A DNA stretch of 64,000 bases from Candidatus Zixiibacteriota bacterium (lineage in GTDB: Bacteria > Zixibacteria > MSB-5A5 > JAABVY01). The stretch spans positions 558 to 64,557 of the forward strand of contig WJMC01000062.1 in the NCBI GenBank assembly GCA_014728145.1, written 5' to 3'. Below, one piece after another: positions 24,001 through 30,000 of this stretch. Position numbers: made by a program. Position 1 is the first letter of the stretch; each line of letters opens with the position of its first letter.

Positions 24001-27000
24001 CAGGTGATGCAGGCTCATCCGGACTGGACTGTGATGCAGGTGCGGGAGGCCTTGATGATGACTGCAGATAATGCCGATACCCCGAACAACACTTATGGCT
24101 GGGGCATCATTGATGTCACCGCGGCGATCGAGTACACATTCGAACCACCGCCGGATTATATGCAGGGAGACGCCAACTACGACTCGTTATTCAATGTCAC
24201 TGATGCTGTCTATATTATCAACTATACTTTAGCGAGCGGTCCCGCGCCGGAACCTGTGGTTGACGCAGGTGATGCCAACGATGACGGTGCAGTGGATATA
24301 TCCGACGCGGCTTACCTGATTAACTGGATTTTCGTGCCCGGTTCTCCCCCGCCTCCGGGTTATGTAGAATAGCTTGGTACGTAATTAAAAACTTAAGGCG
24401 GCTTTTCAGCCGCCTTTTTTCTGCCAATAAAAAAATCAGGCGGATTTCACAATCGACCTGATTCTACTCATAGCCTGAAAACTTCTTTAGTTGGGAAGTT
24501 AATCCCTATATTTCCTTATTCGGATCGATCTTGTATTTCTTTATCTTTTCGAATAAAGTTGTGTAATCAATCTTTAACGCTTCCGATGCTTTGCGCTTGT
24601 TTCCACGGGTTTGCGAAAGCACCCTGATTATAAGCGCGCGTTCAGCTTGCATTTGCGCATGCTGCCCCACCTCGCGCAGACCGGCACCTTCTCTGAGACG
24701 AATTTCCTCAGGTGTCTGGATCCTGATTGCCAGATGTTCCGGCTTGATCCGCTTGCCTTCGCAGAGGATGATAGCCCGTTCGACAGTATTCTCGAGCTCG
24801 CGCACATTGCCCGGCCAGTGATAGCGTTGCATCAGGTTCAAAGCGTCACGGGAAACCTTTTTAGCCGGTTTCTTCATCTCCTTGCAGAATCGGTCGACGA
24901 AGTACTCCGCCAGTGGCTGGATATCCTCGTAACGTTCCCGCAGGGGTGGAATAGTGATCGGAAATACCGACAGGCGGTAGTACAAATCCTCGCGGAACTT
25001 CTTCTTCTCGATTGCATCCTGGAGGTCCATGTTGGTAGCCGCGACTACCCTGACATTGACTGAAACGGTCTGGGTTCCACCCAGTCTCTCGAACTGCTTT
25101 TCCTGCAGAACCCTGAGAATTTTAGCCTGAAGCGATATATGCAGATCCCCGATTTCATCCAGGAAAATAGTACCGCCGTCGGCAACCTCGAACTTACCCA
25201 CGTGACGGGCGTGCGAGGATGTAAACGCGCCTTTTTCCGATCCAAACAGCTCGTTTTCCAGGAGCTCGCTCGGGATCGCGGCTGAATTTATAGCCACAAA
25301 CGGTTTTTCCGCCCGATGAGAAACCTGGTGGATCGCCCGCGCAAAGAGTTCCTTGCCGGTGCCAGATTCCCCGATCAGGAGCACCGAGGTGTCCGAACCT
25401 GCGACTTTCTGGATCAGCTTGAGAACATCTTTGATCTTGGGCGAGGTGCCGATGATCTTTCCCTCTCCGAGATTCATCTTGAGAGCTTCCTTGAGAAGCA
25501 GGTTCTCGTTGCGTAGTTCCTGGTTCTCCACCGCCCGATTGATCATAACATTGAGATGATCGGTGTCGAACGGTTTGGTAAGAAAATCGAACGCGCCCCG
25601 CTTCATCGCCTCCACCGCAGTTTCGATCGTGCCATAGGCAGTCATGACGATCACCGAAGCATCCGGATTCTCCTCCTTGACCGCCGACAGTACCGAGATA
25701 CCGTCCATATCAGGCATCTTGAGGTCGGTCAGGACAACATCGTAACGCTGTTTTTTCGAGAGCTCGATTCCCTCCAGACCATTGGCCGCCGCGTTGACTT
25801 CATGCCCTTCGGCAGAAAGGGTCTGCAACAGCATTTTACGGATCGAGTCTTTGTCGTCGATTACAAGTACTGACGGCATACTCACCCTCTGGATGATTGT
25901 TTCAGGGACTATTGACTCATGTTTATTATCGACAAAAACAGGATATCTTGAACCTAAATTATTTATTAAACCGCCCGGCAAGCTTCTACGCAGTTTCGAC
26001 CGGCTGGGCTGATACTCGAGAATAATTTATATTTTTGCCCCGATCTGTTGCTTGATTTATTAAGAAATAGGACTATCTTTACAGGTAAATAATATTCAAT
26101 TTTCGGGAGGAAAGATGTATTTCAAGCTTATCACTATATGCCTTTCATTGCTGTTAGTATTCAGCGCCTGCCAGGGAGGTGACAACGAGGCCACTGCTGA
26201 AAGCAAGACCGAGGATCAGCAGTCTGACTCTGAAATGATCCGTTATACAATCCTCAAGAAAGGTTTCAATTCGGAGATCAAGGAAGGCGGGGACCTGGTA
26301 ATCAAAAATGAAGCAGAGTTTGACACCCTCTGGAGAGACCTGCACGCCAATATCAGTATTATGCCCGAGAGACCGGAGATCGATTTCGAGCAGGAGATGC
26401 TGGTCGCGGTTTTCATGGGCGAGATGCCCTCGACCGGTTACTGGGTTCACCTCGATACAATCTATGCCACCGACAAAAACCTGATTGTACAGGCAACGAC
26501 CAACACCTCTCCGGATTCCACCTCAGAGATTTTCGATATCCCGACCCAGCCATTTTTCATCGCGGTCGTGGATAAAACCGATCTCCCGGTCCAGTTCGAT
26601 TTCCGATCGGCTGAAGACGGGCCTCGTTAAGGAAAATATTAAACTGGGCAAGCACAAACCCCGGTCAAAGCCGGGGTTTTTTATGGCTGGCAGTTTCGGC
26701 AGGGAGAGAAGCCGATATCGAGGAAGTCTTCACGGGTCGCTTTAATAATCCTGTTTTCAGTTTCAATATTTTCTGCGGACCGGCAACCGGGCCTGTGAAA
26801 GCGCCAGGTAGCGGTATTGCCGATATAGTGATCCGCAGGCGCCGGAGCCGGCAGTGACCAGATCCCGAACTTGTTGTGACGGGCATGGAACTGATCCTCG
26901 ATATACAACTGGCGGTATTCACGCTTCCTCATATCTTCAGGGAAGATATACACTCTCGCCAGCCCGGCCTTGAGCAGTTCACGGTTGACGAAGGCACCAT

Positions 27001-30000
27001 CGGCAAAAACATAGGCCAGCAGGCGACCGTAACGATCCCGCTTGCGATGGTCGAACTCATAGCGCAACTCACTGCCGTACAACAGACTGTCTAAAAATAC
27101 GGTGGCCGAGGAGTAGAACGGCTGACCTCGTTCGGGGGTATCGATTCCGAGCAGACGGATGGTCTCATCATTTGAATCCCGGAATGTGTCGCCGTCAATG
27201 ATCTCGACCGCGACTACTCCAGGCGACGGATCGACGCCCGTAGCCGGGCGATCATCGTTAAACTGCAGGTAAAAATAGACTGCCAGGACAGCCAGTACTA
27301 ATAGTGCGAGCGCGATCGACCTGCGATTTTTTCGGGCTGAATTCATCAGAAAATCCTCATTCTATCCGGCCAGAACTGGACCCGTCCGGGTTTTCATCGA
27401 TGGTGATCAAAGTCGAAACCGACTGTTTGATGTCTTCCACATGAGTCACGATCAGGATCTGCTGGAAGAAATCCTGCAGGCCGGCGATCGCGTTCAATAT
27501 ATTTTCCTGCCGGAAAACATCCTGGCTTCCGAAGACCTCGTCCAGTATTAAAAAACCTGATTCCAAGCGCGATGACTCCGCCAGCATCCGTGAAATCGCC
27601 ATCCGCAGGCTGAGATTGCCGAGATCCTGTTCCCCCCCCGAAAACCGTTTCAGCTCCCGCATTTCTCCGAAGTCGCGGATCTGGATATCGTAGTTCTCAT
27701 CCAGTTCGAGATCGGTAAACTTGCCATCCGACATGACTTCAAGAAGATCGCTGGCGATATTGCGCAGGGTCGGCCGGATCCGTTTGGCCAGCTCGATTTT
27801 TAATTCGCCCAGCAGCTGTTTAAGGGTGTCCAGGTAGATTTTGTCGGTTATAATCTGTTTTGAACGGACGCGGGCCTGCTCAATCTCCTCCAGTTTGATA
27901 TTTAACTGCTCGAGTCTGGATTCAGAAGCCCTGAGGTTACCAAGCGCGTCGGCAAGCTCACGGTCACAGGCCCTCAGCCTGTCGGATTGCTTTTCAAGAC
28001 TGTTTTTAAGCTCGAGATATGCTTTTTCGGAGAACCCGGTCAGATCGATTGCCTGCTGGATATCCTCTATGTTATTATTAATAGTATCGATCTCAGATGA
28101 CAAATATTCAGCGGTTTTTTTGATCGGCTCGAGTTTTTCGATTCTGCCCGCGAGCCTGTCAGCTTCCTGGCGCTTTTCGACCATGGACTTGACGGTTTGT
28201 TTGATATTTTTGTGCTTTTCGGGGTCGTAGTCGACCGCGGAAGCCTCCGCCAGCTTACTGTCCAGCTCCGCTTTTTCGGCTTTAAGGCGTAAAAACTCCT
28301 GCCTCATCTGGTTGATTTCTCCCTGGCGCGCAGAGAGTTCCCGGCGAAGCGGTTCAAGCTTGTGGCGCCTCTCCTCACTGGATTTCAAATCCCCTGTAAA
28401 TTTTCTGTACTCTTTTTGGTGCTCTTGCAGTTCTGTCCGGCCGGATTGCTCATTTTTCTGCAGGATTTTCATTTCGCGTTCGAAATGTGCTTCTATCTCA
28501 TCTTTTTCACCCGCAAAAGGCCTCAGGCAGAAACTGCAGACCGCCTCAGGGCCGAGCCTCTCTATCTCCGACAACTGCTTGCGGAGACGTTTCAACTCAG
28601 TTTCAGTCCGGCTATAAGCCACTTTCCGCTCAGTGATCAGGTCAGCCAGCTCATCTCTTTGCCCTGATAATGATTTTATATTATTAATAATAGTATCATA
28701 ATCACTGGTCTGCTGTTCGAGTCTTTCGATTTTTGTGCCCAGAATCTTACCGTCGGCTTCGATCTGCTCCAGACGCCCTTCGAGAGCTTTCTGTCGCTCT
28801 TTTTGGGAGGACAGCTTTTGGAAGGCAACTCTTTGTTCTTCAAGATTTTCCAGCTTTTGCGAGAGATTGTCGAGAGATTCTGTCTGACTACGGAGCAATT
28901 CATAACGTTTACGGCTTTTCTCGATCTGTTCGATCTCCTCTTTGATTTCAGCCAGTCTCTTTTTATCGCTTTCAACCTGCCGGGTGGAGATCTCAAGTTT
29001 AGTTTTCAGGTTGCGGAACTCATCGCGCTTTTTATCCAGTTCGGAAAATTCTGCCTGCAACTCTTTGAGACGTTTCTCTCCGCTCGTTGATTTTTCTTGT
29101 AAGCCGTTGACCTGTAACGACAGACTCTCCCTTTCCTGAGAGCATTCGACCAGTTTTTGACGGATGTTTTCGTGACCTTCCAAAAACCTGTCGAGGGCTT
29201 CTTTTTCTCCGGCCAACTGCCGCAGATCCCCCTTAATATTATTATTAATAATATGGTTGATTTTATCCAGCCGGAGCATCTCCTCCAGGCGCTGTCCCCG
29301 TTCGGCCGGACGGAGTTCGGTCAGGAGGTTGAGTTCGCTCTGGCGGGTGTAAAACGAGGTCTGGAAGGCCTTAAAATCCAGGCCGGTCAGCTTCTGGACC
29401 TGTTCGCTGACTTCACGGGGGCCTTCGGAGAGCAACTTATCACCCAGATAAAGCTTTGCCTCGCTTTTGTTTGGCGGTTTGAAACCACGTTCAATGCGAA
29501 AATCGCCTGAGTTTAAGCTGAAATCGAGCCGTGCTCGGGTTTCGAGGCCGGATTCGAGAAAATCGGGGTAGATCTCTTCATTTTTGGTTTTCAGGGCCGT
29601 GCTACCGTAGAATAGCCAGGCGATGATCTCCAGCAGGGTGGATTTGCCGACTCCGTTGCGTCCCACCACGCCGATTATTCCGGGCGGGAAACTGATTTCG
29701 AGTTCAGCGAACTTTCTGAAATTGCCCACAGACAGTTTATTCAGGATCATAGGTTTAAAGAAAGCACAAAATCGCCTTTCGGGCAATCATTTTTCATTAC
29801 TTTAGGTGTCACAGAAAGTGCGAAAATATGCGATTTTTTCCGATTTTAATCTTGACAAAATTCAATAAAGTGTTAATATAAAGGCGGCTTGATAAAACAG
29901 ATTGACTGCGACTTGATGGCTTGGGTTGCGGTTAGTCGAACAATGCTTCTTCTTTTGCTTGAATTAATTGTTACGGAAATGCCCTAATAATGTAATGGGT

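What the first reader, a model, noticed from the sequence alone, without database searches (positions are those of the whole stretch)
26681..29750. Rad50/SbcC-type zinc-hook ATPase translationally coupled to a membrane-anchored SNase/Ada-zinc-ribbon nuclease, with no Mre11/SbcD
The 797-aa ATPase is a genuine Rad50/SbcC. It has Walker A, a coiled coil of about 600 aa with a CSFC hook exactly at its midpoint, and a C-lobe with SGGE, LILDE and the H-loop. Its obligate partner is normally the Mre11/SbcD phosphoesterase, in an sbcDC operon. Here there is no sbcD-like gene on either side. Instead the stop of the ATPase gene overlaps the RBS of a thermonuclease (SNase) gene 10 nt away, which indicates coupled translation. 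That nuclease has an N-terminal membrane anchor and a C-terminal Ada-type zinc ribbon. Replacing the Mre11 nuclease with an unrelated SNase-family nuclease is not a described architecture, to my knowledge. It recalls ATPase-plus-effector defence modules such as Lamassu, Gabija, PARIS and the Rad50-like RloC, but none of those uses an SNase/Ada fusion. It could be a new DNA-targeting or defence module, or a non-canonical break-processing complex.
Basis: partly seen in the sequence, partly recalled or inferred. Interest (0 to 1): 0.72.

Follow-up and report, generated by a model that had tools for sequence, protein, structure and literature searches.

The report
Orphaned Rad50 beside an exported nuclease
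The gene pair is real, but it is best read as an ordinary Rad50 DNA-repair ATPase that lost its neighbouring mre11 (and nurA/herA) genes in this Zixibacteria lineage and sits next to an older, independently exported nuclease gene, not as a new ATPase-nuclease machine.

Summary
Both ORFs exist as described: a 797-aa Rad50/SbcC ATPase with a conserved mid-coil CxxC, then 10 nt later a 221-aa protein with an N-terminal anchor, an SNase core and an Ada-like zinc domain. The 64-kb window has no Mre11/SbcD.

The "SNase replaces Mre11" reading is not supported.
- **Orthology:** the ATPase matches, by sequence and by position, Rad50 genes that in other Zixibacteria lie in nurA-herA-mre11-rad50 clusters.
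- **SNase is older than the loss:** in 12 loci the same SNase gene follows an intact mre11-rad50, so it predates loss of mre11 from the locus.
- **SNase is independent:** it persists at the same syntenic slot without Rad50 (at least 8 loci), 41 mre11-rad50 loci lack it, and the same architecture occurs in other phyla with classical signal peptides.
- **Topology:** the SNase is predicted N-in/C-out, like S. aureus Nuc2, so it would be in a different compartment from Rad50.
- **Context:** housekeeping and vertically inherited, not a defence island.

What remains odd is that 40 Mre11-less loci all keep rad50-SNase, mostly with overlapping genes, and Rad50 is under purifying selection (dN/dS 0.13). 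Whether mre11 lies elsewhere in these genomes could not be tested. Interest is modest.

The parts
27357..29750 (-). rad50/sbcC: 797-aa ABC ATPase with a coiled coil of about 510 aa
   Evidence: ORF. Pfam, NCBIfam and PDB matches to Rad50. AF2 model plus Foldseek top hits to Rad50. Orthologous to Mre11-linked Rad50 of other Zixibacteria. dN/dS 0.13 against the 77% orthologue.
29637..29663 (-). Walker A (GRNGVGKST, residues 30-38)
   Evidence: Invariant G30, N32, G33, G35, K36, S37 in alignments.
28527..28538 (-). Zinc-hook-like CSFC (residues 405-408) at the coiled-coil apex
   Evidence: C405 and C408 are invariant in 19 orthologues and in distant SbcC relatives. They sit in the only non-helical stretch (399-415) between the two long helices. 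Pfam Rad50_zn_hook was not matched.
27441..27641 (-). C-lobe motifs: signature SGGE (704-707), Walker B LILDE (734-738), H-loop H770
   Evidence: Invariant columns.
27347..27356 (-). 10-nt rad50-SNase junction. The Shine-Dalgarno-like GAGGA (27354-27358) overlaps the TGA stop.
   Evidence: Sequence. No terminator-like site on the minus strand here. In 25 of 30 Mre11-less relatives the two genes overlap by 4-20 nt.
26681..27346 (-). 221-aa thermonuclease-family protein: signal anchor, SNase core and Ada-like zinc domain
27260..27316 (-). Hydrophobic signal-anchor helix (residues 11-29), preceded by the basic tail MNSARKNRRS
   Evidence: Charge and hydropathy in all orthologues fit N-in/C-out. 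AF2 helix spans residues 3-30 and is followed by a disordered linker.
26852..27214 (-). SNase catalytic core (residues 45-165). D51, D53, R64, D69, T70, E72 and R108 align with staphylococcal nuclease D19, D21, R35, D40, T41, E43 and R87.
   Evidence: Alignment to PDB thermonuclease. Invariant columns. Foldseek TM 0.86.
26684..26836 (-). Ada-N-terminal-like zinc module (residues 171-221) with His184, Cys188, Cys216 and Cys219
   Evidence: hhalign to E. coli Ada residues 25-74, 92% probability, E 6e-7. His replaces the methyl-acceptor Cys38. 18 of 42 family members match PF02805.
29751..30418 (.). Gene-free gap upstream of rad50, at the position occupied by nurA-herA-mre11 in relatives. Presumed promoter region.
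   Evidence: No ORF. No SbcD remnant even when translated through stops. No Rfam family. Compare L172 and L173.

Best explanation
The ATPase is the Zixibacterial orthologue of Rad50/SbcC.

**History.** In related Zixibacteria rad50 is the last gene of an archaeal-type nurA-herA-mre11-rad50 end-resection cluster. A gene for an exported thermonuclease often lies between rad50 and a sigma-54 response-regulator gene. In the window's lineage the nurA-herA-mre11 segment is gone from the locus, leaving rad50 directly followed by the SNase gene. The two are probably co-transcribed from the 630-bp upstream gap.

**Shown:**
- family membership of both proteins;
- sequence and positional orthology to Mre11-linked rad50;
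- coexistence of the SNase with mre11-rad50 in 12 loci;
- SNase alone at the same slot in at least 8 loci;
- purifying selection on both genes.

**Inferred:**
- Rad50 works in the cytoplasm as usual, by ATP-driven head engagement on DNA ends with zinc-hook-mediated dimerisation. Its partner would be an Mre11 encoded elsewhere, or it acts without one.
- The SNase is inserted by Sec as a type II signal-anchored protein with its Ca2+-type catalytic domain and its His-Cys3 zinc (DNA-binding) module outside the cytoplasmic membrane, where it degrades periplasmic or extracellular nucleic acid.
- The two products do not form a complex. The adjacency is inherited synteny, compacted after the deletion.
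For: **Orthology**
- Full-length relatives at 27-33% identity have sbcD/mre11 immediately upstream in about 55 of 80 metagenome loci.
- Independent gene calls with Pfam show NurA, HerA(DUF87), Metallophos, SMC_N, SNase(+Ada_Zn), Sigma54 RR in CP070839.1, and the same order in GCA_001773425.1.
- An NJ tree nests the Mre11-less ATPases among Mre11-linked ones.
- Flanks are shared: sigma-54 RR downstream, PadR and an exported beta-propeller protein upstream.

**SNase independence**
- Locus classes are NHMRS 4, --MRS 8, ---RS 40, MR- 41, R only 16.
- SNase without Rad50 sits at the same slot in L024, L027, L029, L032 and L175, and with a TPR protein in the slot in L014, L015 and L018.
- The same anchor/SNase/His-Cys3 architecture occurs in other phyla without any ATPase.

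**Export**
- Basic N-tail, 19-23 hydrophobic residues, then a neutral or acidic stretch, in every class.
- Homologues have cleavable-looking signal peptides or lipoprotein-like leaders.
- Best NCBIfam match is NucI, including its leader.
- Nuc2 is experimentally a type II signal-anchored, outward-facing SNase (PMC3994088).

**Rad50 is not remodelled**
- dN/dS is 0.13.
- Heads, hook and coiled-coil base are as conserved in Mre11-less (n=33) as in Mre11-linked (n=51) sequences, mostly with the same consensus residues.

**Context**
- Housekeeping genes, exported proteins and type IV pilus genes, with no defence genes.
Against: - In the Mre11-less class the association is perfect (40 of 40 loci) and the junction is tighter: 25 of 30 overlap by 4-20 nt. 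With mre11 present the junction ranges from -41 to +358 nt, and once a whole gene intervenes. That is the pattern expected if the pair became a functional unit.
- No mre11/sbcD, nurA or herA was found in 64 kb of this genome or within 10 kb of any Mre11-less locus.
- None of the 120 best SbcD homologues lies on the complete chromosomes that carry the pair. A distal Mre11 is therefore assumed, not shown.
- Topology is predicted from sequence rules only. No dedicated predictor or experiment was available.
- The tree is a rough NJ tree without support values.
Confidence: 0.6

Rival explanations
1. Non-orthologous displacement. After mre11 was lost, the neighbouring SNase was recruited as the nuclease partner of Rad50. 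This would give a membrane-tethered Rad50-SNase complex that processes DNA ends or foreign DNA.
For: - 40 of 40 Mre11-less loci keep rad50 followed by SNase.
- The genes overlap in 25 of 30, against loose spacing when mre11 is present.
- The orphan Rad50 is under purifying selection with all motifs intact.
- No mre11 in 64 kb.
- Other orphan SbcC-like ATPases sit beside non-Mre11 nucleases: Cas4-type in L011 and Mut7-C/PIN in L157.
Against: - The SNase domain is predicted to be outside the membrane, leaving only about 10 cytoplasmic residues.
- The basic tail and anchor are the same in SNases that have no Rad50 partner.
- The SNase predates mre11 loss and survives Rad50 loss.
- The Rad50 coiled-coil base, where Mre11 docks in solved complexes, shows no clade-specific change.
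- The perfect association is confounded by phylum-wide conserved synteny.
Confidence: 0.12
2. Functional but indirect coupling. The operon co-expresses an outward-facing nuclease that cuts or trims extracellular or periplasmic DNA (for uptake or for nucleotide scavenging) with a cytoplasmic Rad50 that handles incoming or broken DNA. The two never touch.
For: - The SNase-Rad50 association persists across deep divergence, with and without mre11 (52 loci).
- A type IV pilus/secretin cluster (PilQ, PilM, PilN, PilO, GspH-like) lies 4-10 kb away in the window and in several relatives.
- Membrane-anchored outward nucleases take part in DNA uptake in some competent bacteria (my own knowledge of B. 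subtilis NucA and S. pneumoniae EndA, which are unrelated folds).
Against: - The pilus genes are not linked in L173 or L175.
- 41 mre11-rad50 loci lack the SNase, and at least 8 SNase loci lack Rad50.
- The most stable neighbour of the SNase is the sigma-54 regulator, within 3 kb downstream in 28 loci, 7 of them without Rad50.
- No competence genes were identified.
Confidence: 0.12
3. Anti-phage or anti-plasmid defence module of the ABC-ATPase plus nuclease type (Lamassu-, Gabija- or PARIS-like).
For: - Weak PADLOC matches of the ATPase to LmuB, AriA, PtuA and GajA models, and of the SNase to candidate C3a212.
Against: - The matches are generic ABC-head or coiled-coil similarity (best 73 bits, partial), far weaker than those to Rad50.
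- The locus is fixed and vertically inherited across a phylum, with no neighbouring defence or mobile genes.
- The ATPase is orthologous to Rad50 of nurA-herA-mre11-rad50 clusters.
Confidence: 0.03

Closest known systems
Mre11-Rad50 / SbcCD, specifically the archaeal-type nurA-herA-mre11-rad50 cluster (linkage described in PMC2288612; bacterial NurA-HerA in PMC9960219)
   Same: - ABC head with all motifs, an antiparallel coiled coil of about 510 aa, and CxxC at the apex.
- Best sequence and structure matches are Rad50.
- Orthologues in other Zixibacteria lie in the full four-gene cluster.
   Different: - In this lineage mre11, herA and nurA are absent from the locus and from the 64-kb window.
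- At 797 aa the protein is shorter than E. coli SbcC (1048 aa).
- The hook reads CxxC(L/R)RP and does not reach the Pfam Rad50_zn_hook model.
Staphylococcus aureus Nuc2 / NucI-type membrane-anchored thermonucleases (PMC3994088)
   Same: - N-terminal signal anchor followed by an SNase domain with the full catalytic set.
- Best NCBIfam match is NucI over residues 10-164.
- Nuc2 has been shown to face outward.
   Different: - Carries an extra C-terminal Ada-like His-Cys3 zinc module.
- Comes from a presumably diderm Zixibacterium, so the domain would be periplasmic unless it is released.
- Encoded directly after rad50.
N-terminal zinc domain of E. coli Ada (Pfam PF02805)
   Same: - Aligns over about 50 residues, with three of the four zinc ligands and the flanking RP...PC..C.P motif.
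   Different: - The methyl-acceptor Cys38 is replaced by His.
- There is no AraC or AGT domain.
- The module sits at the C-terminus of an exported nuclease, so it is probably structural or DNA-binding, not a repair methyl acceptor.
Lamassu (LmuB) and other ABC-ATPase plus nuclease defence systems
   Same: - An SMC/Rad50-like ATPase encoded next to a nuclease gene.
   Different: - Only weak, partial profile matches.
- No LmuA/LmuC-type partners.
- Fixed housekeeping synteny.
- The nuclease is predicted to be exported.

Membership tests
Rad50/SbcC | Bipartite ABC ATPase head with Walker A, Q-loop, signature, Walker B/D-loop and H-loop | tested here: met
   All motifs present and invariant in 19-20 relatives. 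PDB Rad50 heads E 3e-22. Foldseek TMt 0.78 to M. jannaschii Rad50.
Rad50/SbcC | Long antiparallel coiled coil inserted between the head lobes | tested here: met
   AF2 model has helices 162-398 and 416-673. Top Foldseek hit is full-length C. thermophilum Rad50.
Rad50/SbcC | CxxC zinc hook at the coiled-coil apex | tested here: inconclusive
   CxxC at 405-408 is invariant and lies in the apical loop. Pfam Rad50_zn_hook did not match, and zinc binding cannot be tested here.
Rad50/SbcC | Encoded next to, and working with, an Mre11/SbcD phosphoesterase | tested here: not met
   No Mre11/SbcD in the window or in 40 related loci. Positional orthologues in sister lineages do have it directly upstream. 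A distal mre11 in this genome could not be searched for.
Rad50/SbcC | Curated NCBIfam equivalog score | tested here: not met
   158 bits against a cut-off of 700 for PRK03918 Rad50, and 95 against 478 for TIGR00618 sbcC. It is a divergent member, not covered by an equivalog model.
Staphylococcal nuclease (SNase, PF00565) | OB-fold SNase core above the Pfam gathering score, with Ca2+ and catalytic residues | tested here: met
   75.5 bits against 21. D51, D53, R64, D69, T70, E72 and R108 conserved. Foldseek TM 0.86, rmsd 1.7 A.
Signal-anchored extracellular thermonuclease (Nuc2/NucI type) | N-terminal uncleaved anchor with the catalytic domain facing out | tested here: inconclusive
   Positive-inside charge pattern and a hydrophobic helix of about 19 aa in all orthologues. 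Orientation was not tested experimentally, and no dedicated topology predictor was available.
Ada_Zn_binding (PF02805) | Cys4 zinc site in the Ada N-terminal fold | tested here: inconclusive
   This sequence scores 17.9 bits against 23. 18 of 42 family members match. hhalign gives 92% probability. The first ligand is His, not Cys, so it is a variant site.
Lamassu / Gabija / PARIS / Septu-type defence ATPase-nuclease systems | Specific profile match to the system's ATPase, its cognate effector, and island-like distribution | tested here: not met
   Only partial, weak PADLOC matches. No cognate partner genes. The locus is syntenic and housekeeping across the phylum.

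The most novel reading that the evidence does not exclude
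In a large, old clade of Zixibacteria that lost nurA-herA-mre11 from this locus, the orphan Rad50 has become functionally dependent on the adjacent membrane-anchored SNase. The two genes now overlap and are never separated. One possible mechanism is docking on the nuclease's strongly basic cytoplasmic tail and anchor. That would give a membrane-tethered, Mre11-independent Rad50 module acting on DNA at the envelope, in uptake, restriction or repair.
Probability: 0.1. Interest if true: 0.7.

Novelty: new member of a known kind. Interest (0 to 1): 0.3.

Why it matters
If the ordinary reading holds, the value is mainly as a caution and a catalogue entry. A tight, conserved ATPase-nuclease gene pair can arise by deletion inside a conserved synteny block, so it should not be scored as a new system on adjacency alone.

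Two by-products are mildly useful:
- Zixibacteria carry an archaeal-type nurA-herA-mre11-rad50 cluster.
- A sizeable clade retains a selectively constrained Rad50 with no linked Mre11. This is a natural test case for what Rad50 can do without its usual neighbour.

If the minority reading were true, it would be the first Rad50 that works with a non-Mre11, membrane-anchored nuclease.

Tried and rejected
- **Exact look-up of the window's ATPase:** not on record.
- **E. coli SbcD, a Chloroflexi Metallophos_2 and an archaeal fragment as phmmer queries:** no hits in the window or early loci. This was low in sensitivity, so I replaced it with a 37-sequence clade-specific SbcD HMM. That was also negative for the window, the upstream gap read through stops, and all Mre11-less loci.
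- **Finding a distal sbcD in complete Mre11-less chromosomes (CP070674.1, CP070777.1) by matching contig lengths among SbcD homologues:** none among the 120 listed. The list stops at 53% identity, so this is inconclusive.
- **Defence reading:** the PADLOC hits are generic, so I rejected it.
- **Decaying-relic reading of rad50:** rejected on dN/dS 0.13 and intact motifs.
- **Clade-specific remodelling of the Rad50 coiled-coil base:** none seen, though the test has low power.
- **Rfam and promoter/terminator scans around the pair:** nothing informative.
- **Foldseek on the whole SNase model:** swamped by staphylococcal nuclease entries, so it could not show the Ada-like domain. I used hhalign instead.
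- **Literature searches for a described Rad50/SbcC plus SNase pairing, or for Zixibacteria repair genes:** nothing found.

Full report
**1. What is in the sequence**

On the minus strand, an ORF at 27357-29750 encodes 797 aa from its ATG. An in-frame TTG at 29786 is not supported by the orthologues. A second ORF at 26681-27346 encodes 221 aa. The first ends in TGA, and 10 nt later the second starts with ATG. GAGGA overlaps the stop, 7 nt upstream of the ATG. No terminator-like site separates the genes.

The larger protein is a Rad50/SbcC-type ATPase.
- It matches AAA_23, AAA_15, SMC_N and weakly SbcC_Walker_B.
- Its best NCBIfam matches are archaeal Rad50 models, at 158 bits and far below their cut-offs.
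- Its best solved relatives are M. jannaschii and T. maritima Rad50 heads (E 3e-22 to 8e-17).
- Walker A, Q-loop, SGGE, Walker B, H-loop and a CxxC(L/R)RP motif at 405-408 are invariant in 19 orthologues.
- An AlphaFold model (pLDDT 83) has heads at 1-160 and 681-797, helices 162-398 and 416-673, and the two cysteines in the only non-helical stretch between them.
- Foldseek ranks full-length Rad50 first.
- The coiled coil is therefore about 510 aa, not about 600.

The smaller protein is a thermonuclease-family enzyme.
- It is an SNase (PF00565, E 5e-21) with all catalytic residues. Its model superposes on staphylococcal nuclease at TM 0.86 and 1.7 A.
- Its C-terminal 50 residues align with the zinc domain of E. 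coli Ada (hhalign 92%, E 6e-7). His replaces the methyl-acceptor Cys38. 18 of 42 family members reach PF02805.
- Its N-terminus is MNSARKNRRS followed by 19 hydrophobic residues.

No Mre11/SbcD, NurA or HerA is encoded anywhere in the 64 kb.

**2. Who carries it**

Homologues place the window in candidate division Zixibacteria. Orthologues at 96, 77, about 45 and about 30% identity all have the SNase gene directly downstream.

A genome scan with the SNase alignment returned 80 loci. Among the 35 or so with the same anchor/SNase/His-Cys3 architecture, 19 had the ATPase immediately upstream.

All of these share one synteny block: response regulator-GAF-HD, M50 peptidase, a large PQQ/dockerin protein, [slot], SNase, then a sigma-54 response regulator, HNH and TrpRS. 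The slot holds one of three things:
- the ATPase;
- a TPR protein whose gene overlaps the SNase start by 4 nt (L014, L015, L018);
- nothing (L024, L027, L029, L032).

A further case is the complete chromosome CP070742.1, where the SNase follows a polyprenyl synthetase gene.

**3. The decisive comparison**

Scanning metagenome contigs with the ATPase alignment gave 80 full-length relatives at 27-33% identity. With a clade-specific SbcD profile, mre11/sbcD lies immediately upstream of the ATPase in about 55 of them. In 12 loci the order is mre11, rad50, SNase, usually followed by the sigma-54 regulator.

Independent gene calls with Pfam annotation show NurA, HerA (DUF87), Metallophos, SMC_N, SNase(+Ada_Zn), Sigma54 regulator in the 2.56-Mb Zixibacteriota chromosome CP070839.1. 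The same order occurs in GCA_001773425.1. This is the archaeal-type rad50-mre11-nurA-herA linkage (PMC2288612), which explains why the ATPase scores best against archaeal Rad50.

| Locus class | Count |
|---|---|
| nurA-herA-mre11-rad50-SNase | 4 |
| mre11-rad50-SNase | 8 |
| rad50-SNase without mre11 (includes the window) | 40 |
| mre11-rad50 without SNase | 41 |
| rad50 alone | 16 |

A rough NJ tree nests the Mre11-less ATPases among the Mre11-linked ones. Canonical mre11-rad50 clades branch first.

The simplest history has four steps:
- an ancestral nurA-herA-mre11-rad50 cluster;
- an SNase gene lying between rad50 and the sigma-54 regulator in part of the phylum;
- loss of nurA-herA-mre11 from the locus in the window's lineages;
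- compaction of the rad50-SNase junction.

**4. Is the SNase a partner of Rad50?**

Against:
- It coexisted with Mre11 in 12 loci.
- It survives without Rad50 in at least 8 syntenic loci.
- 41 mre11-rad50 loci do without it.
- A sigma-54 regulator gene lies within 3 kb downstream of it in 28 loci with enough sequence, 7 of them without Rad50.
- Its N-terminus fits an N-in/C-out signal anchor in every class. Homologues with the same architecture in other phyla have classical signal peptides or lipoprotein-like leaders.
- The characterised analogue, S. aureus Nuc2, is a type II signal-anchored, outward-facing nuclease (PMC3994088).
- The strongly basic tail is also present in SNases with no Rad50 neighbour, so it is not a Rad50-specific adaptation.
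- Rad50's coiled-coil base, where Mre11 docks in solved complexes, shows no clade-specific change.

For:
- The association is 40 of 40 in the Mre11-less class.
- 25 of 30 junctions there overlap by 4-20 nt. With mre11 present the junction ranges from -41 to +358 nt.
- Rad50 is under purifying selection (dN/dS 0.13; SNase 0.16).
- No mre11 was found near any of these loci.

Phylum-wide synteny confounds the first two points.

**5. Context and defence**

The window holds the following:
- a type IV pilus/secretin cluster;
- exported proteases and Ig/PKD proteins;
- PFOR, Lon, lipoyl synthase, thioredoxin reductase, a MiaB-like enzyme and regulators.

There are no defence or mobile-element genes. 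PADLOC matches are weak and generic. The locus is inherited vertically at a fixed position.

**6. Verdict**

The architecture is best explained as an orphaned Rad50 next to a pre-existing exported nuclease (confidence 0.6).

The rivals are:

| Rival reading | Confidence |
|---|---|
| Recruitment of the SNase as Rad50's nuclease | 0.12 |
| Indirect coupling through extracellular DNA handling | 0.12 |
| Defence system | 0.03 |

The main gap is that I could not search the complete Mre11-less genomes for a distal mre11.

No paper describing a Rad50/SbcC-SNase pairing was found.

Novelty: new members of known families in a derived gene arrangement. Interest: 0.3.

Noticed in passing
L172:4290-12150 and L173:5094-12379 (also L092, L108): Zixibacteria carry an archaeal-type nurA-herA-mre11-rad50 cluster, with a small bPH_5 gene between nurA and herA in L172. 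It is followed by the exported SNase and a sigma-54 regulator. I found no paper mentioning this for the phylum.
   Followed up: partly
L157:5977-8852 (also L159): In a Rad50-only clade, the gene overlapping the ATPase stop by 4 nt encodes a Mut7-C/PIN-like RNase domain protein (PF01927, E 1e-43). This is another orphan Rad50 next to a non-Mre11 nuclease.
   Followed up: no
L011:4220-7568: A distant SbcC-like ATPase (P0023, 855 aa) is preceded, 16 nt upstream, by a Cas4-type PD-(D/E)xK nuclease gene instead of sbcD.
   Followed up: no
L014:8646-10004, and the equivalent genes in L015 and L018: A TPR protein of about 445 aa occupies the Rad50 slot. In L014 and L018 its gene overlaps the SNase start by 4 nt. 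So tight coupling to the SNase gene is not specific to Rad50.
   Followed up: partly
window 29751-30418: A gene-free gap of about 670 bp upstream of rad50, about 940 bp in L001. It lies where nurA-herA-mre11 sits in relatives. There is no SbcD remnant and no Rfam match. Its conservation was not examined.
   Followed up: partly
window 4911-6134 (-): A stand-alone 407-aa PD-(D/E)xK superfamily protein (PDDEXK_1, E 8e-29) lies next to an ABC1-kinase gene, 21 kb from rad50. Its role is unknown, and it could be another DNA-end nuclease.
   Followed up: no
window 22651-24372 (+) and 30419-34213 (+): An S8 protease and a 1264-aa PQQ-like beta-propeller protein flank the pair. Their orthologues carry dockerin-type domains. 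The window therefore carries many predicted secreted proteins around the pair.
   Followed up: no
L014, L018, L020, L026, L034, L036, L039, L046 (record titles): MAGs labelled Ignavibacteria or Ignavibacteriales share the full Zixibacteria synteny block, as do one Calditrichota and one Deferrimicrobium MAG. Either the labels are imprecise or the block is conserved beyond the phylum.
   Followed up: no
L172:9110-11518: An intact rad50 ORF is present (phmmer E 1e-202), but no gene is listed there in the record's called genes. This looks like a gap in that record's gene table.
   Followed up: no
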